Virus genome (UHGV): UHGV-1446736 | From: a virus | Direction: 5' to 3' (one strand) | DNA length: 26,779 bases | Part shown: one piece after another, positions 2,284 to 21,109 of the stretch | Layout: each line of letters starts with the position of its first letter | How positions within the stretch are numbered: position 1 is the first letter of the stretch | Position numbers and translations under genes: made by a program | Notes under the pieces: generated by a model | Databases searched by the model: none | What the model was told of the DNA's origin: nothing | What the model saw: the letters and a program-made list of their open reading frames with translations, nothing else

Positions 2284-2636
2284 TACGCCTCCGATGTAAC
2301 AGTCGTTATTCCATAAAGAGTGTCGATTTCAGCGGAAAACATGACACGTCGGGTCGTGGTATCCACCGTCGTATTGAAAGAGAGGATTGATTTAACGCCC
2401 CGCGTTTCGAGGATGCGCTTACGGATCGCCAGGTTGTAGGTTTCCGGCTTCTGCTTACCGAGTACGGACTGGATCCACGGAGTCCCTTCGGTGGTGTCTA
2501 GAAACCATTGCCCATACCACAATTCAAATCGCGTTTTTACCGCCTGCGCCACGGCCTCCGGTGAGTTAATCAGCCAGGTATCATCACCGCTGCCAAAGGT
2601 GTAATCGCCATCGGCGTCTTCACGTCTGTATCGCAT
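2283..2636 (-). CDS. Small baseplate protein (Mu gp46 / gpW-like)
   Basis: 117-aa ORF between the spike and baseplate J genes, translationally coupled to both. Confidence 0.45.
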   Translation of the reverse strand: MRYRREDADGDYTFGSGDDTWLINSPEAVAQAVKTRFELWYGQWFLDTTEGTPWIQSVLGKQKPETYNLAIRKRILETRGVKSILSFNTTVDTTTRRVMFSAEIDTLYGITTVTSEA

Positions 2637-3388
2637 CAGTTTACTCCGTCGGTATTGCTTCCACCGCGCTGAACACCACCATGAGTGTGCGTATCATCGA
2701 TTAGCTTGCCGTTAGCCTTCACGCTACCCAAAAACTCAACAGCACCAGTGATTTTTGAAGCCACACCAGAAACAACAGACCCCACCATGCCCCCCATCCA
2801 GGTTAACAGGCCATGAATGGTTACTTTCTCAGAAAAATCAGCCAGAGGGGCAACCACATCAAGCCCCCCCGGAGCGACAATTTTAATTTTCCTGGTATCA
2901 GGATTAAGCTCAAAATAGGTGCTGCCGTCGTCACTACGCAACTGTGTGGCACTGGTATTAATACCGCTAATCTTCCTTGCCTGCGACTGGGGACCGACAA
3001 TACAAAACGCATCCGATAAATCATGCATTCTGTCATCGACCGGCTCCTGTATCCCGCCACTCTGCCACCAGAAATCAATACAACGATCGGCAAAAATCAC
3101 CAAACATTCATCACCGGCTTTAGCTGGGAACGTTAGCGTACATCCTCCGCCGCGTGGGAATACCACTGGCACATCCACCAGCAATGGGTAATTTTTGGTA
3201 ATGCGGTTGCCGTCATTATCCTTTTCAACCGAACGGATAGCAGGCTGCACAACTGCCGTCACCGCATCAGGATCGAATGACTGAATAATGCCAGGCAAGG
3301 CGACACGGATCTGGTTCTTTGTTGTTTCCCGTTCAGATTTGAATGTTTCGGCAAGGTCGCCGCTGCGGGTCTGGTCAGATACTGCCAT
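2636..3388 (-). CDS. Baseplate central spike protein (P2 gpV / Mu gp45-like)
   Basis: 250-aa ORF with a C-terminal HTHGG (His-x-His) stretch like the apex motif of gpV-type spikes; a GGAG ribosome-binding site lies about 9 nt before the ATG at 3388. Confidence 0.5.
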   Translation of the reverse strand: MAVSDQTRSGDLAETFKSERETTKNQIRVALPGIIQSFDPDAVTAVVQPAIRSVEKDNDGNRITKNYPLLVDVPVVFPRGGGCTLTFPAKAGDECLVIFADRCIDFWWQSGGIQEPVDDRMHDLSDAFCIVGPQSQARKISGINTSATQLRSDDGSTYFELNPDTRKIKIVAPGGLDVVAPLADFSEKVTIHGLLTWMGGMVGSVVSGVASKITGAVEFLGSVKANGKLIDDTHTHGGVQRGGSNTDGVN

Positions 3389-3404: not shown

Positions 3405-3432
3405 AGCAAAAAACCCGCCGGATGGCGGGTTC
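3405..3432 (-). terminator. Rho-independent terminator closing the cargo island
   Basis: Plus strand reads aaaaaa-cccgcc-ggat-ggcggg-tt; on the minus-strand RNA this is a 6-bp GC stem with a 4-nt loop followed by UUUUUU. It lies 20-45 nt downstream of the 123-aa gene stop at 3451. Confidence 0.65.
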
Positions 3433-3450
3433 GTGGTAAATAGTGACTTT

Positions 3451-3822
3451 TTATGAAATCCGTTTAAAAAAATGCTGCGCGGTTAATAATGATTCCCTGG
3501 CAACGTCAGCATTTATCTTGGAGTCAGATAAGCGATAGTCGGCTTCATTCCGCGCTTGTCTCATTTGGCGGAGATCGTATGCAAGTATTTTTAATCTTGC
3601 AGGAGGTATTTCTTCCTTAGGTATGCCCATCCTACCTTGCATGTAGTTGATTAAATTAGCATGGTGATTATGTTCTACAGAGGGGACATGCTTCAGAGCC
3701 TCGCCAGCACGATGAAACATAGCATAGTAGGCTCGCGATACGGCATTACGATAACCAACTTCTTCGTCCAGAGTTAAACAATGTTCACTTGAACGCAAAA
3801 AATCAAAACTCTGAATAGTCAT
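3451..3822 (-). CDS. Hypothetical 123-aa protein, second gene of the AT-rich two-gene cassette (possibly a HEPN-like helical domain, speculative)
   Basis: ATG at 3822 preceded by AAGGA; it overlaps the last 20 nt of the upstream 258-aa gene; AT-rich codon usage unlike the flanking tail genes. Segments AYYAMFHRAGEAL and RQARNEADY loosely recall HEPN-type proteins, but this is unverified. Confidence 0.6.
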   Translation of the reverse strand: MTIQSFDFLRSSEHCLTLDEEVGYRNAVSRAYYAMFHRAGEALKHVPSVEHNHHANLINYMQGRMGIPKEEIPPARLKILAYDLRQMRQARNEADYRLSDSKINADVARESLLTAQHFFKRIS

Positions 3823-4579
3823 AAGTTTCCTTCGTATGGGACTCCCTTAAAACCGAGAAACGAGCAGTCATTTCACAGTCGTCTAACCTTGACTCAGAAC
3901 ATATCCTTTCAGCCAAATCAAAATTCATCAAAACGATATCTTCCGGAGTAGCTTTCTCCACTTGCACGAGATAATCACCGCCCATAGAGCTGAAAATTCC
4001 CAAGCTACCGGGAATAAGTTTACGTTCTTCAAGGATCGAATGAGTGATGTCCCCAAGCAATCTAAACTGCTCAGGTGTACAAACTTTTGCCTCGTAACAT
4101 CCTTTAACACCATCGATAAGCTCACGCATATAGGCTTCAGCTCCGTACTTGTCATCGTTTTCTGACAGTAAACGACAGTGCCATTCCATGTATTTCTGGA
4201 TTGCCGCTAGGTCACCAACCCGATAAGATTCCGCGGCAGCAAGCATAGTCAACATTTTCCCGCCAAACGAATCAGCAAGTTGATAAATAATTTCATGTAA
4301 CTGGCGGTAGTGATGTCGTTTGAAAAGGAAAGCAGCGAAATTCTTTGCAATAGTGATGTTGCCCATTTTCAGATGCTTATGAAAATGTTCATAGGCTAGA
4401 TCATCTTCACCATTTAAAGCATAAGCAAAACCAACCGCGCTAACATCGTTGCCTTCAGTGCTGGATGAATAATTGCGTAAAACGTAACGATAAGTGAACT
4501 CATCTATCGAAGCATTTTCTTCAAGCATCGCCCCGAACTGGATAACATAGTTACTGGATGCTTTAGCTGGTGTAGCCAT
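3803..4579 (-). CDS. Hypothetical 258-aa protein, first gene of the AT-rich two-gene cassette
   Basis: The ORF track starts at 4603 on a TTG; the first ATG is at 4579 (MATPAKASSNYV...) with AAGGA 5 nt upstream. No signal peptide or motif I recognise; AT-rich. Confidence 0.6.
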   Translation of the reverse strand: MATPAKASSNYVIQFGAMLEENASIDEFTYRYVLRNYSSSTEGNDVSAVGFAYALNGEDDLAYEHFHKHLKMGNITIAKNFAAFLFKRHHYRQLHEIIYQLADSFGGKMLTMLAAAESYRVGDLAAIQKYMEWHCRLLSENDDKYGAEAYMRELIDGVKGCYEAKVCTPEQFRLLGDITHSILEERKLIPGSLGIFSSMGGDYLVQVEKATPEDIVLMNFDLAERICSESRLDDCEMTARFSVLRESHTKETYDYSEF

Positions 4580-4624
4580 AATAATCCTTAACCCCAGAAT
4601 CAACTGCCTGAAATTGATGTCAGA

Positions 4625-4660
4625 AATGGATTATAGCTTTACTGATTAACCTTTTTACAC
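4625..4660 (-). promoter_or_regulatory. Candidate sigma70 promoter for the two-gene cassette
   Basis: A perfect TATAAT on the minus strand (plus 4630-4635) about 45 nt upstream of the 258-aa gene ATG; the -35 region (TGTAAA-like) is weak. Confidence 0.25.
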
Positions 4661-4971
4661 GGGAAAGACCCGATGATTTTCGGCGCATCCATGCTGTTCT
4701 GCAGCAGCTGGACGTTCAGGAAAGCTTTTCCGTTACGTTTCACAAACTCAAAGCCGTAATTGTTACCATCACGGGAAGGCATCAGGCCCATGTCCATTTT
4801 CATGTTTGAATAGTCACCATCTTTTCCCAGAAATTTTATCTTCTGTGATGTGACAGTTTCACCGTTAATAACAGTCATTCCGTCACCGGTCATCGTGTAG
4901 TTGCCGCACTGAATTGCAGCCATCGCCGGAGCAGTAACCATCATAACTAACGCCAAACATAACCGTTTCAT
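4639..4971 (-). CDS. Small secreted/periplasmic protein of unknown function (signal peptide)
   Basis: ATG at 4971 (MKRLCLALVMMVTAPAMAA...) gives a classic signal peptide with an AxA cleavage site; the mature protein is about 90 aa with two Cys. An AGAGGG ribosome-binding site precedes it and its start overlaps the hub gene stop (TAATG). Confidence 0.55.
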   Translation of the reverse strand: MKRLCLALVMMVTAPAMAAIQCGNYTMTGDGMTVINGETVTSQKIKFLGKDGDYSNMKMDMGLMPSRDGNNYGFEFVKRNGKAFLNVQLLQNSMDAPKIIGSFPCKKVNQ

Positions 4972-6035
4972 TAAAGCCCTCTTTCCCTCGCTGATGAGGA
5001 AACAAGATCCGCCGCACCACGCGCTTCGCACATCATATCCATGTACCACGCCTGGCCCCTTGTATCGCCAGTGTACATAATCCCGCGCACAATATAAACG
5101 CCATCCGTTGCGATGCTGGCAGGCTGCGATGTGGTGCCGCTTAGCGTAATATTTCCGTCCGTGTTCTGGTCGGTGATCTGCCCACCGGCCATCGCGATAT
5201 CGTTGTTCGACAACGCGGTGCGATATACAGAAGCCTGATCCAGCTGAATGAGCCCGTTAACCCGGATGTTCGGATTAATGAGCGCACGGACGTTTACGCC
5301 GTTACCGATGGTCTGCTGCGGCATGCCAATAAGCCCGGTAGCACTGTTGAGCACAATCGCTTCGTGAACATATTCGTTATTCGCCACCATCTGGCGTTGA
5401 CCATCCACGAATTGCCATGTTGCGCCACATTGCCCGGCTACGTTATCCATAAGATGCCGCGTCATGCCAAAGAGCACCCGCCCCCGGGGGAATACAGTCG
5501 CAGGCATTTCAGGCGTCAGGCCTTCGGTCGCGCCTTTGGCTTCAAAGTCTTTCATCAGCGCACGGTTTACATCAGCGACCGTGTAACCGGCAGCCAGCGT
5601 CTGTGAGGTTATACTGGTGGCAAAAGCCAGATCAGTATCTGCTGCCTGAATCAGGACGTAGGTATCAACCGGACTGTCTTTTCCTGTGACCGAGTAGCGA
5701 ATTTCACCGCTGAAAATCAGTCCGTAGTTGCGGCCATCTCTCTGGCCCACGTCCGCCGCGTCAACTTCCCGCACGGTCCCTACGTCGCTTGCTGACACCT
5801 CCGGCGCGATACCGTCGTAACCGGCAATCAGACGCACTTTCGAAAATTCCTGCCCGGTGATTCGGTTCACAGTATCTGCCGAGAGGTTATAAATTTTGAT
5901 AGTCCCTACCCGGGACGCGCTGCTGATGTTGAACCAGTCGATCGTAAAGGTGACTTTGAAATCACTTAGCTCAATTCCCTGACCGTTCCCGTCCACAAGC
6001 TGCAGCTCGAAATGTCTCATCCAGTTCTGTGACAT
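4971..6035 (-). CDS. Baseplate hub-like tail protein (Mu gpP / P2 gpD-like)
   Basis: 354-aa ORF placed after the tape measure and two small tail genes and before the spike, as expected for a hub protein; assignment by synteny. Confidence 0.45.
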   Translation of the reverse strand: MSQNWMRHFELQLVDGNGQGIELSDFKVTFTIDWFNISSASRVGTIKIYNLSADTVNRITGQEFSKVRLIAGYDGIAPEVSASDVGTVREVDAADVGQRDGRNYGLIFSGEIRYSVTGKDSPVDTYVLIQAADTDLAFATSITSQTLAAGYTVADVNRALMKDFEAKGATEGLTPEMPATVFPRGRVLFGMTRHLMDNVAGQCGATWQFVDGQRQMVANNEYVHEAIVLNSATGLIGMPQQTIGNGVNVRALINPNIRVNGLIQLDQASVYRTALSNNDIAMAGGQITDQNTDGNITLSGTTSQPASIATDGVYIVRGIMYTGDTRGQAWYMDMMCEARGAADLVSSSARERGL

Positions 6036-6037
6036 GC

Positions 6038-6340
6038 TTACTCCGTTGATACCAGTAAATGACTGCGGCCGCCCAGATCAGTTTTCGTGGGATAATCCTG
6101 TGTGTTGTCATCGCAGACCACCACCAGCTTAAAACCAAGCCCCATACAGGCGTACTGCGCCAGCAAGTCAGCACCAGTGACGAGAGGAATACCGGAGATT
6201 ACCGGCTCCCCTCTGTCGTTCTGCAGGTCCATAATCCAGTAAAGATCGCGCCATATGATGCTAATCCGCCAGGTGACACCCCCCAGGACGATGCTGAACT
6301 GCTGATTGTCCGCTGTCAGCGGAATTTCCTGAATTGTCAT
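6038..6340 (-). CDS. Hypothetical tail protein (100 aa)
   Basis: Tightly packed ORF within the tail operon between the tape measure and hub genes. Confidence 0.4.
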   Translation of the reverse strand: MTIQEIPLTADNQQFSIVLGGVTWRISIIWRDLYWIMDLQNDRGEPVISGIPLVTGADLLAQYACMGLGFKLVVVCDDNTQDYPTKTDLGGRSHLLVSTE

Positions 6341-6927
6341 TATCCGCCTCCCAGTAATGACGCCACGTTACCCGTGATGCTTTTCAGCAGTGAAGTATCT
6401 GGAGGCTTTGTGGTTTTGTTGCCGCTGTTCTGTACCGCCGACGTGCTGGCCCCTTCCTTCATGTTGGTTTTATCAGCAACGGTGATCTGCTGTGTCCGGG
6501 AGATAAGGACCTCCCTCAGGGTGAGGACGGCGGACAGGACGTTTTCGGTTGTCTTGTCCGTCGTCACTTCCAGCGCCCGGATCAACATGTTGCTGTACAG
6601 CCGTTTACCGGTTACCACATCGAAGGGGATACGGCTTTCCTGCAGATCCAGTAGCTCCTGATACGTCTGCTGAGGACTCAGGCCGAGCAGGCTGGTAGCC
6701 GTCAGATTACTGGCAAAATCCAGCAATGCGCCGCCACCGGCGAAACCAACCTCCATCACCACTTCTGACGGTTTTTTATAGGCATGATCAGCGACAGCGG
6801 CCCCGACCTCTACCGGATGCTCTGTTATTTCAAGCATATCTGTATGCTTCTCTGAAATAACAACACTGGGAACAATCATTCCTATTTTTCTGCTCTGCTG
6901 ATGAAAAAGTGTAGAGAGAATATCCAC
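6340..6927 (-). CDS. Hypothetical tail protein (195 aa)
   Basis: ORF immediately downstream of the tape measure gene, ATGA-coupled to its neighbours. Confidence 0.4.
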   Translation of the reverse strand: MDILSTLFHQQSRKIGMIVPSVVISEKHTDMLEITEHPVEVGAAVADHAYKKPSEVVMEVGFAGGGALLDFASNLTATSLLGLSPQQTYQELLDLQESRIPFDVVTGKRLYSNMLIRALEVTTDKTTENVLSAVLTLREVLISRTQQITVADKTNMKEGASTSAVQNSGNKTTKPPDTSLLKSITGNVASLLGGG

Positions 6928-8915
6928 TAACCCACCCTCACCTGATTACTTCGCATGACCTGAGCATTTGCAGACTGTTGCCGACGTGCAACCTCATTAC
7001 CGACAGCGTGCGGATCTCCGCCACCGTAAATGTGGTAAGTATTTTGCTGGTTAACCTCTGTCATTTTGCCACTAATTCCCGCCACGGCAGCCTTATTAAT
7101 CAGCTCTCGAGAATAGATATTTCTTCCATTTTCATGCTGGATAATGCTGCTCATCAATGCTGACATGGTTTGCGGATCGCTCATATTCAGGGCAGCCCGG
7201 GGATCCACTCCCAGTCGTTGCGATACAGCCCTGATATACGCAGTTGTGTTGTTATTATCAGACGCAGGTGCCCAGGTAGAGATAATTTTCTCCACACTGT
7301 TTATTCCCCGTCCGGCGTACAGCATTAACTGACGAGCAAGAGCTCGTAATCCATCAAAAGCAGTTTCAAATCTGGCAAATCGCCCGCCCGGGCGTTCAAG
7401 AGAAGCCCCTGCCTGACCAGCAAAATTAAGGTTTCCCGGATTGTTATTCCGTTCTCCTCGTTTCGTAGCCTGTGCATATTGTTCCGGCTCATCATCACCA
7501 AACCAGCCGCGTACCGTCCGGCCCACACTGCGGGGATCGAATCCCCAGTGCTCTTTAATCCAGTCGGCAGTACTGTTAGCGCTGTCTGTAACCATCGGCA
7601 TCGCTGACGGATTTTCGCTGCCCTGATTAAGTATCTGTTTGCCGATGCTGACGGCATCAGCCCAGCGGCCATCTTTGATAGCGTTGAGCAGGTCGGCGAT
7701 CATGTTCAGCATTTTGCTGAATTCGCCCATCTGGTCGATGAAGTTGCTGAAATCCCACTTCAGGGACCATGATTTGGGGTCAATATTGAGCAGTTTCGCC
7801 AGCGCTTTCGCCAGTTCATTAACAGACCCTTTCAGGTCACGAACCATCTTCAGCGCGGCATCGACCTCCGGCTTCCACTTGCCCCAGTCAATCAGGCTGT
7901 CGCCGCCTTCCTTCCAGGTCTGATAGTCCTCCCACAGAAGGGCAATCCCCGCCGCCAGCGCGGTAATGAGGCCAATCGGCGACATCCAGAACGTACTGTT
8001 CAGAATGCGCAGCGCAATCGTCAGCGCGCCAAACAGCGAGATGAGCTCCCGCGTTTGCTTATCCAGCGATTGCCACCAGGTGATGAGGCCTGATGTTCCT
8101 TCAATCAGTCTGAAGAACAGCCGCCCGATAATATCCCCGAGCGCCAGAATGCCTTTTATGGCTTTCGTCAGGGTCTGCTCGATACGCGGGAAGTTGTCCA
8201 GGATATGGCGGCGCAGAGTGTCCAGCGAACCCGCAAGCCCACCCGCAAGATTAGAGCCGATTTTGTCACGGGCCATGCCTGCCATCGCGCCAAACTCACG
8301 CAGGGAGGTCATAAATTTGTTGGAGCTTCTGGCCGCCTCGTCAGCATTGAAGCCGATAGCTTTCGCCATTGCGCTGTACTGCCCGGAGAAACCACCCACA
8401 CCCCGGCGCATCGCCATAAGGGTATTTTCGTCAATGCCCAGCATCTGCGCATACTGGTTAGCCCGGTAATACGGCATGCCGCTGAGCTTCTGTCCTACAC
8501 CTGTAAAAATAGCGGCCATGTCACGCATGTTACCGCTGGCATCCCGTGTCTGTACCCCCAGACGATTCAGAAATCCCTCAGCCCCGGGGTTATTACGGAT
8601 AAAACGGGCAAGGCTCTCCAGTGACCCGCGCGCAGCGTCCACGCTGCCGCCAACCTGCGAAACCGCATAGCCAATAGACTGAATTCCCTGGACTGTCGCG
8701 CCGGTGCGCTGTGACGCCCAGTAAAGATTATCCAGACCAGAGGCGATCTTAGCCGTGAAGGCCACCACGGACAGCGCAGCTCCTTCAACAGCCAGCCCCA
8801 TTTTGATGACATTTGCAGTTGTACCGGCGAGGACAGAACCGAACTTTTTCGCTCCTGCATCATCCACACTGAAGCCAAGCGAGACGAGGAAATCTTTAAT
8901 AGTTTCAGCGTTCAT
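6927..8915 (-). CDS. Tail tape measure protein
   Basis: Long ORF (about 660 aa) with Ala/Gly-rich helical N-terminal part and a hydrophobic central stretch (LISLFGALTIALRILNSTFWMSPIGLITALAAGIALLW), downstream of the tail chaperone. The probable start is the ATG at 8915 (MNAETIKDF) with GAGAGG upstream; the track start at 8936 is a TTG. Confidence 0.75.
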   Translation of the reverse strand: MNAETIKDFLVSLGFSVDDAGAKKFGSVLAGTTANVIKMGLAVEGAALSVVAFTAKIASGLDNLYWASQRTGATVQGIQSIGYAVSQVGGSVDAARGSLESLARFIRNNPGAEGFLNRLGVQTRDASGNMRDMAAIFTGVGQKLSGMPYYRANQYAQMLGIDENTLMAMRRGVGGFSGQYSAMAKAIGFNADEAARSSNKFMTSLREFGAMAGMARDKIGSNLAGGLAGSLDTLRRHILDNFPRIEQTLTKAIKGILALGDIIGRLFFRLIEGTSGLITWWQSLDKQTRELISLFGALTIALRILNSTFWMSPIGLITALAAGIALLWEDYQTWKEGGDSLIDWGKWKPEVDAALKMVRDLKGSVNELAKALAKLLNIDPKSWSLKWDFSNFIDQMGEFSKMLNMIADLLNAIKDGRWADAVSIGKQILNQGSENPSAMPMVTDSANSTADWIKEHWGFDPRSVGRTVRGWFGDDEPEQYAQATKRGERNNNPGNLNFAGQAGASLERPGGRFARFETAFDGLRALARQLMLYAGRGINSVEKIISTWAPASDNNNTTAYIRAVSQRLGVDPRAALNMSDPQTMSALMSSIIQHENGRNIYSRELINKAAVAGISGKMTEVNQQNTYHIYGGGDPHAVGNEVARRQQSANAQVMRSNQVRVG

Positions 8916-9092
8916 TATCCTCTCTCCATTTCTCAATGCGCCGCTGGTTATCCGCTTTTACCGCCAGATGGTCATTCAAGAGAGCAATGTCGTACAAATC
9001 GACAGAGCCATCTTTAAGTGCTGTATAAGGAATTAACCCGGCGTCAACCGGATTGAGAAGGTAGGACAGCCCGTCCGGCAGGCTGTTAAACG

Positions 9093-19663: not shown

Positions 19664-20215
19664 TTAGCCCATCATTTTTCTATACGCTTCTGCAACCTGC
19701 TCCGGCGTTAAGTTGGTAATTTCTGTTCTGACTGGTCCTCCGTCAGCACCAGTCACTTCATTTTTGACATTGTCTTTAAACGCCTGAACAGAAACATGAC
19801 GCCCGAGCAACTCAAGGTTTTTAACCTTATCAGGCCATTTGATTTTCTTCAGAAGTGCGGCGCTATCTGCGGATGCCATCTCCACGACATCCATTCCTGA
19901 TAACGTTGTGCGCCATACCTTAGGCCAGTCTTTAATGGGTTTTAGCTCACCGTTTTGCAGGAGAATGTCAAGCACATCCATCTGGTCGATTTCAATAAGG
20001 CGATTAAGTACATATTCTGCATTAATACCAACAAGATCATTGCGTTGCGCTTTCAGTTCGGCGATTCTTAACTTGATGTCAGGTTTTGACAGGTTTTCGG
20101 ATGCGGTACGGTTGGCTGTTTTTGCGCTGTACCCCGCCCGAATAGCCGCTTGCGTGGCGTTTAAATCGATGAGGTACTCGCGACAGAACATCTCTTGCTT
20201 GTCTGTGAGTGCCAT
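19664..20215 (-). CDS. Terminase small subunit (P27/Terminase_2-like)
   Basis: 183-aa ORF starting [30 protein letters not shown], the N-terminal signature of this small-terminase family; ATG confirmed at 20215. Confidence 0.8.
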
Positions 20216-20235
20216 TTTTTCTCAAAGGTGAATTT

Positions 20236-20667
20236 ATGAGCTCATTAACGTTTATCGGATTGTCACAGTTACTTTCTAGGAAAGGTGAGTTATTACAGCA
20301 AAATACGAATGATTTATTAGAACGTGTTAACACCGCATGGAATAACAAACGAGACCTTAATAAGCAAATTTCCATAGAGCTAAATGATGGAGAGCTTGAG
20401 GTTTCAATTCCACAGCTACGCTTTAAGTGTTTTACAGAAAGTAAGCTTTCACTTCACGAAGGCTCATTAATTGGGGTTATTACTTTTTACACATCGCGAG
20501 ATGGAAAAAAACAGGAGTTTCATAAAATTTTTCTTGATTGGAACAATTGCATGCATTTTGGGGCGCTTGACTCAACAGCTCCAATAGACATCGACTATAC
20601 CGAAGATGTTGAGTATCTCTTTATGAACGCTCTAATCGATTCTGCTTATCGAAATAATTTAATCTAA
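20236..20667 (+). CDS. Orphan plus-strand moron gene, hypothetical 143-aa protein
   Basis: The only convincing plus-strand gene in the window: ATG at 20236 with AAGGTG 5 nt upstream, markedly AT-rich, no signal peptide or transmembrane segment, no motif I recognise. It sits between terS and the lysis cassette, where lambda carries bor. Confidence 0.6.
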   Translation: MSSLTFIGLSQLLSRKGELLQQNTNDLLERVNTAWNNKRDLNKQISIELNDGELEVSIPQLRFKCFTESKLSLHEGSLIGVITFYTSRDGKKQEFHKIFLDWNNCMHFGALDSTAPIDIDYTEDVEYLFMNALIDSAYRNNLI

Positions 20668-21109
20668 TTGATGTTGGTGGTGAACTTTTGCCACCCAGTT
20701 AATCACTCTTAGCAGGATATAAGCCATTGTCGAGACCACTCATTGAATGGTCTCTGCAATAACCGATGTCTTTCCATCAGTCCGCCACCACAAAGAATCT
20801 TTTTTGCCATAAGGCAGGAGGTTCATCTTTCAGTGGCTGCCAGTGTTATTTCCCCACTTACTGGCTTGGGTTGTTTCGCTGTACTGCCGTAACTGGTTGC
20901 CCAGAATAAATTCCGGTTTCATTATCAAGCCCACCCGTAGATAGGCTTTGTAATTAACTGGCTCTTATCTCAACGCAGCCCCTTACCGCGCGCCAGATGC
21001 TCAACTTCAAGCATCAGCAATGAGATGTTTAATCTGGATTCACTCCAGAAGTGATCACCACCCTGTCTACAGAGCCAGATGTGAAGGATGATGAGTAAAA
21101 TTATCGCTA

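What the first reader, a model, noticed from the sequence alone, without database searches (positions are those of the whole stretch)
3405..4971. AT-rich cargo island of three unknown genes inserted between the baseplate hub and spike genes
Hub and spike genes are normally adjacent in Mu/P2-type tails. Here about 1.5 kb of visibly AT-rich DNA sits between them, carrying a secreted small protein (4639-4971), then a 258-aa and a 123-aa protein whose reading frames overlap by 20 nt (3803-3822), each with its own AAGGA ribosome-binding site, a candidate TATAAT promoter upstream and a strong intrinsic terminator downstream. I recognise none of the three proteins; the 123-aa protein has helical segments loosely reminiscent of HEPN-type nuclease domains. 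A coupled large-plus-small gene pair carried as autonomous cargo in a prophage is the architecture expected of toxin-antitoxin, abortive-infection or superinfection-exclusion systems, so this is my best candidate for an undescribed system.
Basis: partly seen in the sequence, partly recalled or inferred. Interest (0 to 1): 0.85.

Follow-up and report, generated by a model that had tools for sequence, protein, structure and literature searches.

The report
Mobile HEPN toxin-like pair in prophage
An E. coli prophage carries, in a swap-prone slot between two tail genes, a mobile pair of overlapping genes (a repeat-helix protein plus a small HEPN RNase-like protein) that looks like an untested, uncatalogued toxin-antitoxin or anti-phage module.

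Summary
The sequence features are real, but the unit is two genes, not three. The window is a SEN34/STY1063-like myovirus prophage of E. coli SCU-301. Compared with relatives carrying other cargo, homology breaks at window 3432 and about 4648. The small secreted gene (4639-4971) and the terminator (3411-3432) are therefore conserved backbone.

The swapped cassette holds only the 258-aa and 123-aa genes, which overlap by 20 nt.
- **258-aa protein:** a TPR-like helical repeat plus a small alpha/beta domain. It has no conserved polar residue and belongs to no catalogued family.

The two genes travel together. In 38 of 39 phage loci fetched through the HEPN gene, a 258-family gene lies directly upstream. 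The pair occurs in several unrelated phage tail modules and on a Vibrio plasmid, and a likely pair sits on an Acinetobacter plasmid.

The most likely reading is a toxin-antitoxin-like abortive-infection module in which a TPR-like partner replaces the usual MNT nucleotidyltransferase. Function is untested. I rate it a new variant of a known kind.

The parts
3803..4579 (-). Upstream gene of the pair: a 258-aa protein with TPR-like helical repeats (about residues 1-165) and a C-terminal alpha-beta-beta-alpha-beta domain (about 169-243). Proposed antitoxin, regulator or sensor.
3451..3822 (-). Downstream gene of the pair: a 123-aa HEPN-domain protein of the AF0298/UPF0332 (HEPN-T) type. Proposed RNase toxin or effector.
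3803..3822 (-). 20-nt overlap between the stop region of the 258-aa gene and the start of the HEPN gene, suggesting translational coupling.
   Evidence: Sequence. Overlap or abutment of -26 to +1 nt in 54 of 56 unique pair sequences.
4580..4648 (-). Cassette-specific leader containing TATAAT (4635-4630) and the AAGGA ribosome-binding site. Left edge of the swapped DNA.
   Evidence: Sequence. Homology breakpoints at 4645-4650. No promoter reported by the scan. Other alleles carry better sigma-70-like sites, such as TTGACT-18-TAAAAT and TTGACG-18-TAGAAT.
3411..3432 (-). Intrinsic-terminator hairpin followed by a T run. Right edge of the swapped DNA, and conserved in relatives that carry other cargo.
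   Evidence: Homology with relatives resumes at 3430-3432.
4639..4971 (-). 110-aa signal-peptide protein of the STY1065/STY2022 family. This is a conserved backbone gene flanking the slot, not part of the cassette.
   Evidence: Matches phrog_3443 at 3.3e-53. Present next to the hub in E. coli, Serratia and Salmonella-type relatives. RefSeq name. GC3 of 0.54. Its start overlaps the hub stop codon.
4971..6035 (-). Baseplate hub gene (upstream backbone flank).
   Evidence: PF22759 at E = 3.4e-5. Annotated 'baseplate hub' in the SEN34 and YP3 records.
2636..3388 (-). Membrane-puncturing spike gene (downstream backbone flank).
   Evidence: Spike N-terminal domain at 1.6e-43 and Apex motif. RefSeq annotation.

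Best explanation
Window 3432-4648 is a mobile two-gene cassette (a moron) sitting in a recombination hotspot of a SEN34-like prophage, between a conserved small secreted-protein gene and the spike gene.

The downstream gene encodes an AF0298/UPF0332-type HEPN protein. I infer that it is a metal-independent RNase whose active site uses the clade's alternative histidine (H54) together with R91, D95 and Y96, probably across a dimer.

The upstream gene is translationally coupled to it and encodes a fast-evolving, non-enzymatic TPR-like protein. I infer that this protein binds the HEPN protein and holds it inactive, taking the place that the MNT nucleotidyltransferase antitoxin has in classical MNT-HEPN modules.

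During infection by another phage, the partner would be either titrated by a phage protein or lost. The freed HEPN would then cut RNA and stop growth, giving abortive infection that protects the lysogen population.

**Shown here:** cassette boundaries, mobility, obligate pairing, HEPN fold and motif, TPR-like fold, and absence of an NTase.

**Inferred:** RNase activity, toxicity, neutralisation by the partner, the trigger, and the defence phenotype.
For: - **Mobility and hotspot.** Only 3 of 353 E. coli genomes with this prophage type carry this allele. In 61 sampled relatives the slot ranges from 330 to 1370 bp. It holds at least 8 diverged pair alleles (28 loci) or unrelated cargo. Breakpoints are sharp, at 3432 and about 4648. 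The pair's GC3 is foreign to the backbone.
- **Other contexts.** The same pair sits in lambda-like TMP-gpM and gpK-gpI slots and in a lysis-terminase slot. It is also in Klebsiella phage ST405-OXA48phi1.3 and on a Vibrio plasmid, with a likely counterpart on an Acinetobacter plasmid.
- **Obligate pairing.** 38 of 39 loci fetched by HEPN homology, down to 29% identity, have a 258-family gene directly upstream. Of 93 HEPN-bearing loci in all, 89 also have one. Two of the four exceptions are contig-edge truncations, one is a short remnant and one is a weak hit. The gene junction is -26 to +1 nt in 54 of 56 unique pairs.
- **Co-divergence.** Pairwise identities of the two genes correlate (Spearman 0.66).
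- **HEPN membership.** The invariant polar set matches the alternative active site that Anantharaman et al. 2013 proposed for AF0298-like HEPN-T and AbiV (PMC3710099).
- **Partner looks like a binder.** It has no invariant polar residue. Its median pairwise identity is 19%, against 33% for the HEPN.
- **Precedents.** MNT-HEPN modules place the antitoxin 5' of the HEPN gene (PMC3710099). AbiV is a HEPN RNase toxin-antitoxin and abortive-infection system whose closest solved structures include AF0298. HepS is a prophage HEPN abortive-infection protein.
Against: - No experiment bears on it.
- The canonical Rx4-6H histidine is absent: Y96 sits at that position, preceded by D95. RNase activity has not, to my knowledge, been shown for an AF0298-type HEPN with this substitution, so the protein could be catalytically dead.
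- The window's protein scores below Pfam's HEPN threshold.
- The promoter in this allele is weak, so expression in the lysogen is unproven.
- The cassette has the same orientation as the late tail operon, so it may be expressed mainly during lytic growth.
- The partner's role as inhibitor rather than activator or effector is argued from gene order and analogy only.
- Plasmid carriage is equally compatible with a pure addiction module.
Confidence: 0.5

Rival explanations
1. A selfish toxin-antitoxin (addiction) module with no role in phage defence. The HEPN toxin and TPR-like antitoxin only stabilise the prophage or plasmid that carries them, through post-segregational killing.
For: It is present on mobilizable plasmids. 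One is a 10-kb Acinetobacter plasmid, where the HEPN homologue follows a 258-aa TPR-annotated gene. Another is a Vibrio plasmid, where the pair lies next to a recombinase and Tn3. It has the same gene order and coupling as type II toxin-antitoxin pairs.
Against: At least 8 strongly diverged alleles compete for one prophage slot alongside other small accessory cargo. The partner evolves fast. Both fit an arms race better than simple addiction. A single-copy integrated prophage gains little from post-segregational killing.
Confidence: 0.15
2. A phage-benefit or counter-defence function used during lytic growth. The pair would be transcribed with the tail operon and act on host RNA, or block a host immune system. 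For example, the HEPN-like protein might mimic or titrate host HEPN or MNT components.
For: It has the same orientation as the late genes and sits inside tail modules in at least four phage architectures. The promoter in this allele is weak. The canonical catalytic histidine is missing.
Against: A terminator and cassette-specific leaders with sigma-70-like promoters in other alleles suggest independent expression. Ten invariant residues, eight of them polar or aromatic, argue for an active site rather than a decoy. The pair also occurs on plasmids with no lytic cycle.
Confidence: 0.12
3. A non-enzymatic binding pair. The HEPN domain would be catalytically inactive and, with the TPR-like protein, would bind nucleic acid or a protein of incoming phages. 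That would give exclusion or assembly interference without RNA cleavage.
For: The canonical Rx4-6H motif is not met. Anantharaman et al. note that HEPN domains lacking the motif can be RNA-binding only. TPR folds are protein-binding scaffolds.
Against: That paper predicts inactivity for HEPN domains lacking any conserved charged or polar residues. This family keeps E21, R25, R30, H37, H54, R91, D95 and Y96 invariant from 29% to 100% identity, in the positions proposed for the alternative site.
Confidence: 0.1
4. Conserved baseplate or tail-assembly components that belong between hub and spike.
For: Position inside the baseplate gene block.
Against: The pair is replaced by unrelated genes or nearly nothing (331 bp) in close relatives whose spike is 89-99% identical. 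It is present in siphoviruses, in non-tail slots and on plasmids. It has a HEPN fold.
Confidence: 0.02

Closest known systems
MNT-HEPN toxin-antitoxin modules (type II/VII; PADLOC candidate PDC-M05; HEPN-T/PF05168 clade, e.g. AF0298)
   Same: - It is a small stand-alone HEPN-T protein with the clade's signature: D in place of the motif histidine and an alternative histidine between helices 2 and 3.
- The partner gene is 5' and coupled to it, and the module is mobile.
- 2 of 19 family members weakly hit PDC-M05B.
   Different: - There is no nucleotidyltransferase. The partner is a 258-aa TPR-like protein with no NTase motif and no conserved acidic residues, so neutralisation by AMPylation is not available.
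- The hosts are enterobacterial prophages and plasmids, not the archaea and thermophiles where MNT-HEPN is most common.
AbiV (Lactococcus HEPN RNase, type III toxin-antitoxin abortive-infection system)
   Same: - It is a HEPN protein used for abortive infection.
- The closest solved structures to AbiV are AF0298, TT1696 and sacsin HEPN, the same neighbours as here.
- Anantharaman et al. grouped AbiV with AF0298-like proteins because of the alternative histidine.
   Different: - AbiV is 201 aa and uses R91...H97. Its antitoxin is an RNA.
- Here the partner is a protein, and no repeat or RNA family was found.
HepS (Gifsy-1) and Tha (S. aureus), prophage-encoded HEPN abortive-infection proteins triggered by tail proteins
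   Same: They are prophage-borne HEPN effectors in accessory slots. They give defence that must spare the carrier phage.
   Different: - Both are single proteins with a canonical Rx4-6H motif and no partner gene.
- There is no sequence relation to the pair. Nothing here shows what the trigger is.
HEPN families reported in operons with TPR or Sel1 repeat proteins (LA2681, AbiU2; Anantharaman et al. 2013, Table 1)
   Same: The architectural theme is the same: a HEPN gene next to a helical-repeat protein gene.
   Different: - Those HEPN families keep the canonical Rx4-6H motif and are different clades.
- Pfam finds only PF05168 for this family. None of those operons has been characterised either.
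P2/P4 prophage defence hotspots (old/tin, Z/fun; Rousset et al. 2022)
   Same: A fixed slot in a temperate phage, flanked by conserved genes, in which diverse small accessory and defence cassettes are exchanged.
   Different: This is a different phage lineage (SEN34/STY1063-like) and a different slot (small secreted gene to spike). I found no description of this hotspot.

Membership tests
HEPN superfamily | Four-to-five-helix up-and-down bundle superimposable on solved HEPN domains | tested here: met
HEPN superfamily | Canonical Rx4-6H catalytic motif at the end of helix 3 | tested here: not met
   The sequence is R91-N-E-A-D95-Y96. No histidine lies 4-6 residues after R91 in any of 41 unique homologues.
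HEPN-T clade, AF0298/UPF0332-like (PF05168) | [quoted passage not shown] 2013) | tested here: met
   D95 and H54 are invariant. H54 lies in the segment between helix 21-42 and helix 74-96 of the model. The criterion comes from PMC3710099.
HEPN-T clade, AF0298/UPF0332-like (PF05168) | Significant sequence-profile match | tested here: inconclusive
   The window protein scores 19.3 bits against the Pfam cut-off of 22. Only 4 of 19 diverse members hit PF05168 at E <= 0.01. However, a profile of the family hits PDB HEPN proteins 9xbd (1.2e-10) and AF0298 (1.1e-7).
HEPN superfamily | Metal-independent endoribonuclease activity | not testable with these tools
   Needs purified protein and RNA cleavage assays.
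MNT-HEPN toxin-antitoxin module (PDC-M05) | Minimal nucleotidyltransferase (MNT) gene adjacent, usually 5', to the HEPN gene | tested here: not met
   The upstream protein has no NTase hit in Pfam, NCBIfam or PADLOC. It has a TPR-like fold. It has no conserved acidic residues.
MNT-HEPN toxin-antitoxin module (PDC-M05) | Partner gene 5' of, and coupled to, the HEPN gene | tested here: met
   20-nt overlap here. The junction is -26 to +1 nt in 54 of 56 unique pairs.
Toxin-antitoxin system (general) | One product toxic when expressed alone and neutralised by the other | not testable with these tools
   Needs inducible expression of each gene alone and of both together.
TPR repeat proteins (for the 258-aa partner) | Tandem helix-turn-helix repeats forming a superhelix, with a Pfam TPR match | tested here: inconclusive
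Catalogued anti-phage systems (PADLOC-DB v2.0.0) | Both proteins match the models of one system | tested here: not met
   The partner gives only scattered single chance-level hits. The HEPN gives weak HEPN_IX hits (8 of 19, best 1.6e-4) and PDC-M05B hits (2 of 19).
AbiV | About 200-aa HEPN with R91-x5-H97 and an upstream RNA antitoxin | tested here: not met
Phage moron or accessory cassette | Absent from close relatives, deviant composition, own terminator and promoter | tested here: inconclusive
   - Absent or replaced in relatives: met.
- Deviant composition: met.
- Terminator: present, but it belongs to the shared flank.
- Promoter: only TATAAT with a poor -35 in this allele, with better candidates in other alleles.

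The most novel reading that the evidence does not exclude
The TPR-like protein is a fast-evolving sensor for tail or baseplate proteins of competing phages, and it releases an unconventional HEPN RNase with an H54/R91/D95/Y96 site. The cassette would sit inside tail-gene modules in at least four unrelated phage architectures so that it stays genetically linked to the carrier's own non-triggering tail alleles. That would be a built-in self-tolerance arrangement. It would also be the first demonstrated activity for the histidine-less AF0298-type HEPN site.
Probability: 0.12. Interest if true: 0.8.

Novelty: new variant of a known kind. Interest (0 to 1): 0.55.

Why it matters
HEPN RNases are recurrent effectors of bacterial immunity and of toxin-antitoxin systems. 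The AF0298/UPF0332 branch lacks the canonical histidine and has, to my knowledge, no demonstrated activity.

This branch is found here in a strictly conserved, mobile pair with a non-enzymatic TPR-like partner in place of the MNT nucleotidyltransferase. The pair has diversified into many alleles that compete for one prophage slot. That gives a compact (1.2 kb), easily cloned candidate for three questions:
- Is the alternative HEPN site catalytic?
- How does a HEPN toxin get controlled without AMPylation?
- What do these prophages defend against?

It also defines a previously undescribed cargo hotspot, from the small secreted gene to the spike gene, in a prophage lineage found in 353 of 5426 complete E. 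coli genomes.

Tried and rejected
- **Single-sequence family scans.** Pfam, NCBIfam and PADLOC gave nothing for the 258-aa protein and only a sub-threshold HEPN hit for the 123-aa protein.
- **PDB sequence search with the 258-aa protein.** No hit.
- **DefensePredictor validated systems.** Its DS-28 is also a HEPN plus roughly 250-aa pair. However, it has the opposite gene order, a canonical RNSVAH motif and unrelated sequences. None of our accessions or sequence motifs occur in its supplement.
- **HepS.** The single-gene HEPN cargo of relatives has no PDB sequence match, so it is not detectably HepS.
- **Type III (RNA) antitoxin.** No tandem repeats and no Rfam family above threshold.
- **Genome-contig scan with the family alignment.** It returned only two Serratia loci, because the peptide patterns were narrow.
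- **Foldseek against afdb50.** The library was unavailable.
- **Domain-wise conservation of the partner.** It was nearly flat, with a modest peak at residues 212-243, so it does not separate a 'sensor' half from a 'binding' half.
- **Literature searches.** Searches for UPF0332, COG1895, the accession numbers and the PDB codes found nothing on this pair.
Full report
**Where the window comes from.** The 3.5 kb around the finding is 100% identical to the chromosome of E. coli SCU-301, NZ_CP051751.1. It lies in the tail module of a SEN34/STY1063-like myovirus prophage. All genes here are on the minus strand. In order they are:
- tape measure (6927-8936)
- Dit-like protein (6340-6927)
- plug (6038-6340)
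- hub (4971-6035)
- a 110-aa gene (4639-4971)
- a 258-aa gene (3803-4579)
- a 123-aa gene (3451-3822)
- spike (2636-3388)
- sheath initiator, baseplate J and DUF2612

**Checking the observation.**
- The three ORFs and the 20-nt overlap (3803-3822) are there, as are the AAGGA-type ribosome-binding sites.
- A TATAAT hexamer lies at 4635-4630.
- A terminator hairpin lies at 3432-3411, followed by a T run. It folds at -18.3 kcal/mol, z = -2.97.
- The stretch has 42.8% GC against 50.7% for the window, and it is essentially the lowest-GC stretch of its size.
- The promoter is the weak point. The best -35 matches 3 of 6 positions, and the scan did not report the site.

**The unit is two genes, not three.** Eight relatives carrying different cargo lose homology at window 3430-3432 and regain it at 4645-4650. 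The terminator and the 110-aa gene are therefore conserved flanks.
- The 110-aa gene occurs next to the hub in all relatives examined, including Serratia.
- Its start overlaps the hub stop codon (TAATG).
- Its GC3 is 0.54. The pair has 0.36-0.39 and the hub 0.61.
- Newer RefSeq annotation names it 'STY1065/STY2022 family phage-derived protein'.

The swapped cassette is about 1.2 kb and contains only the overlapping pair and its leader.

**A cargo hotspot.** Related DNA occurs in 353 of 5426 complete E. coli genomes. Only 3 of them cover at least 80% of the query, meaning they carry this allele.

I sampled 61 IMG/VR contigs whose spike is 89-100% identical to the window's. This is the best-scoring subset, so it is not an unbiased census. 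In that sample the DNA between the small secreted gene and the spike ranges from 331 to 1373 bp.
- Twenty-eight contigs carry a version of the pair, in at least eight sequence clusters.
- The rest carry unrelated small cargo:
  - a single 147-170-aa protein with an RNNLFH (Rx4H) motif
  - several membrane proteins, one with a weak PycTM hit
  - a secreted 121-aa protein
  - a 192+138-aa pair
  - zinc-ribbon proteins on the opposite strand

This rules out a structural role for the pair and shows that the slot is a site of frequent cassette exchange.

**The pair is an obligate, mobile module.**
- E. coli BH100N carries an allele that is 32% and 37% identical in the two proteins, at the same position. 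Its HEPN gene is not annotated in RefSeq.
- I fetched 39 viral loci through homology to the 123-aa protein alone, down to 29% identity. In 38 of them a member of the 258-aa family is the adjacent upstream gene.
- Of 93 HEPN-bearing loci in all, 89 also have a 258-family gene. Two of the four exceptions are contig-edge truncations, one is a short remnant and one is a weak hit to a different HEPN.
- In 54 of 56 unique pair sequences the HEPN start lies -26 to +1 nt from the partner's stop codon.
- Many loci are not in the hub-spike context:
  - lambda-like siphoviruses, between the tape measure and gpM, between gpK and gpI, or before the tape measure
  - between the lysis genes and the HNH/terminase genes
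  - near replication genes
  - Klebsiella phage ST405-OXA48phi1.3
- A Vibrio parahaemolyticus plasmid carries a pair that matches both family profiles.
- A 10-kb mobilizable Acinetobacter plasmid carries a HEPN homologue preceded by a 258-aa 'tetratricopeptide repeat protein'. That protein did not reach the family profile at E <= 0.01.

**The 123-aa protein.**
- Alone it scores just under Pfam's HEPN threshold, 19.3 against 22 bits.
- The AF2 model is confident (pLDDT 92.5).
- A profile of 19 diverse family members hits the PDB HEPN proteins 9xbd (1.2e-10) and AF0298 (1.1e-7).
- The canonical Rx4-6H motif is not met. The sequence reads R91-N-E-A-D95-Y96.
- Across 41 unique homologues, E21, R25, R30, Y32, Y33, H37, H54, R91, D95 and Y96 are invariant. 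Nearly the same set holds when the plasmid sequences are added.

This pattern matches what Anantharaman et al. (PMC3710099) described for the AF0298-like HEPN-T clade and for AbiV. In those proteins D replaces the motif histidine. A second, strongly conserved histidine in the insert between helices 2 and 3 is proposed to form an alternative active site with the arginine. H54 lies in that insert in the model. I could not measure the H54-R91 distance because model coordinates are not exposed.

**The 258-aa protein.**
- It has no hit in Pfam, NCBIfam, PADLOC or PDB sequences.
- It belongs to phrog_17809, function unknown.
- An exhaustive HMMER search of 1.84 billion representatives found only 66 clusters. 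The full-length ones are about 250-290 aa, and none carries an extra domain.
- Source names are 'hypothetical protein' or occasionally 'tetratricopeptide repeat protein'.
- The AF2 model (pLDDT 91) has helical repeats over about residues 1-165 and a C-terminal alpha-beta-beta-alpha-beta domain.
- Across 46 unique members no polar residue is invariant. Median pairwise identity is 19%, against 33% for the HEPN partners of the same loci. The HEPN is the more conserved protein in 98% of locus pairs, and the two sets of distances correlate (rho 0.66).

This is the profile of a binding protein rather than an enzyme, and specifically not of a nucleotidyltransferase.

**How it most likely works.** HEPN-T proteins of this kind normally sit downstream of an MNT nucleotidyltransferase antitoxin. 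That arrangement is PADLOC's candidate PDC-M05, which two family members weakly match.

Here a TPR-like protein occupies the MNT position, with the same 5' placement and tight coupling. I infer three things:
- the HEPN is the toxin or effector, an RNase using the alternative site
- the TPR-like protein is its stoichiometric inhibitor and probably the sensing element
- infection by another phage frees the HEPN, giving abortive infection

Precedents for HEPN effectors in prophage or abortive-infection settings are AbiV, HepS/RemAIN and Tha. AbiV is an RNase toxin whose nearest solved structures include AF0298. HepS, RemAIN and Tha appear.

The evidence for independent expression is partial. Other alleles carry sigma-70-like promoters in their own leaders, such as TTGACT-18-TAAAAT and TTGACG-18-TAGAAT. 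This allele has only a TATAAT.

None of the functional steps is shown. Toxicity, neutralisation, RNase activity, the trigger and the defence phenotype are all inference.

**Rivals.**
- A pure addiction module fits the plasmid copies, but not the allele diversity at a single prophage slot.
- A lytic-cycle or counter-defence role fits the orientation and the weak promoter.
- A catalytically dead binding pair fits the missing histidine. It is hard to reconcile with ten invariant residues, eight of them polar or aromatic.
- A structural role is excluded.

**Novelty.** I found no catalogued system matching both proteins. No paper in the searchable library mentions these accessions. The DefensePredictor supplements contain no matching sequence. 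Its DS-28 is a different HEPN pair.

The kind of system, a HEPN-based toxin-antitoxin or abortive-infection module in a prophage hotspot, is well known. The partner family, the absence of MNT and the hotspot itself appear to be undescribed. I therefore rate it a new variant of a known kind and a good experimental candidate, but not a categorical surprise.

Noticed in passing
L004 1850-2362 (-) (phage vB_EcoM-606R2); also the L093, L126 and L139 inserts: In the same hub-spike slot, some relatives carry a single 147-170-aa protein with a canonical HEPN-like RNNLFH (Rx4H) motif instead of the pair. It has no PADLOC hit and no PDB sequence match. The slot therefore hosts at least two unrelated HEPN-type cargos.
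   Followed up: partly
L089 and L070 inserts (IMG/VR relatives), 176-184-aa ORF plus 57-59-aa ORF: Another cargo class in the slot is a multi-pass membrane protein with a weak PADLOC PycTM hit (E = 9e-4), followed by a small acidic protein.
   Followed up: partly
window 4639-4971 (-): The 110-aa signal-peptide protein (STY1065/STY2022 family, phrog_3443) is translationally coupled to the hub gene and conserved across E. coli, Salmonella-type and Serratia relatives. A secreted protein embedded in a baseplate operon has no obvious role; it might be an exclusion factor or a periplasm-acting tail accessory.
   Followed up: partly
window 3411-3432 (-): A strong intrinsic terminator sits in the middle of the tail operon, just before the spike gene. 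It is conserved in relatives whatever cargo they carry. Late transcription would have to read through it or restart after it.
   Followed up: no
L003 1849-2244 (-) (E. coli BH100N); L141 1089-1531 (-); L144 4752-5147 (+) (Klebsiella phage ST405-OXA48phi1.3): The HEPN partner gene is left unannotated in several RefSeq genomes and is split into two short ORFs in a GenBank phage record, although an intact 131-aa ORF is present in BH100N (L003) and the Klebsiella phage (L144). L141 was checked only for the annotation gap.
   Followed up: yes
window 20200-21100: There is a second low-GC patch (37-41% GC) between the terminase small subunit gene (19664-20215, minus) and the spanin and endolysin genes. 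It holds an opposite-strand 152-aa ORF (20209-20667, plus) with no Pfam or PHROG match. This is probably another accessory slot, and it is the same type of position where a pair homologue sits in locus L043.
   Followed up: partly
L004 2694-3113 and 3120-3758 (-): The hub gene of phage vB_EcoM-606R2 is split into two ORFs (139 aa and 212 aa). This could be a frameshift, a sequencing error or a pseudogene.
   Followed up: no
PDB 9xbd and 9xbc: The closest solved sequences are two entries of one HEPN protein that, over the aligned stretch shown, differ only at the tyrosine of the R-N-x-S-D-Y motif (Y to F). The depositors evidently consider that tyrosine, equivalent to the invariant Y96 here, functionally important. 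No paper was found.
   Followed up: partly
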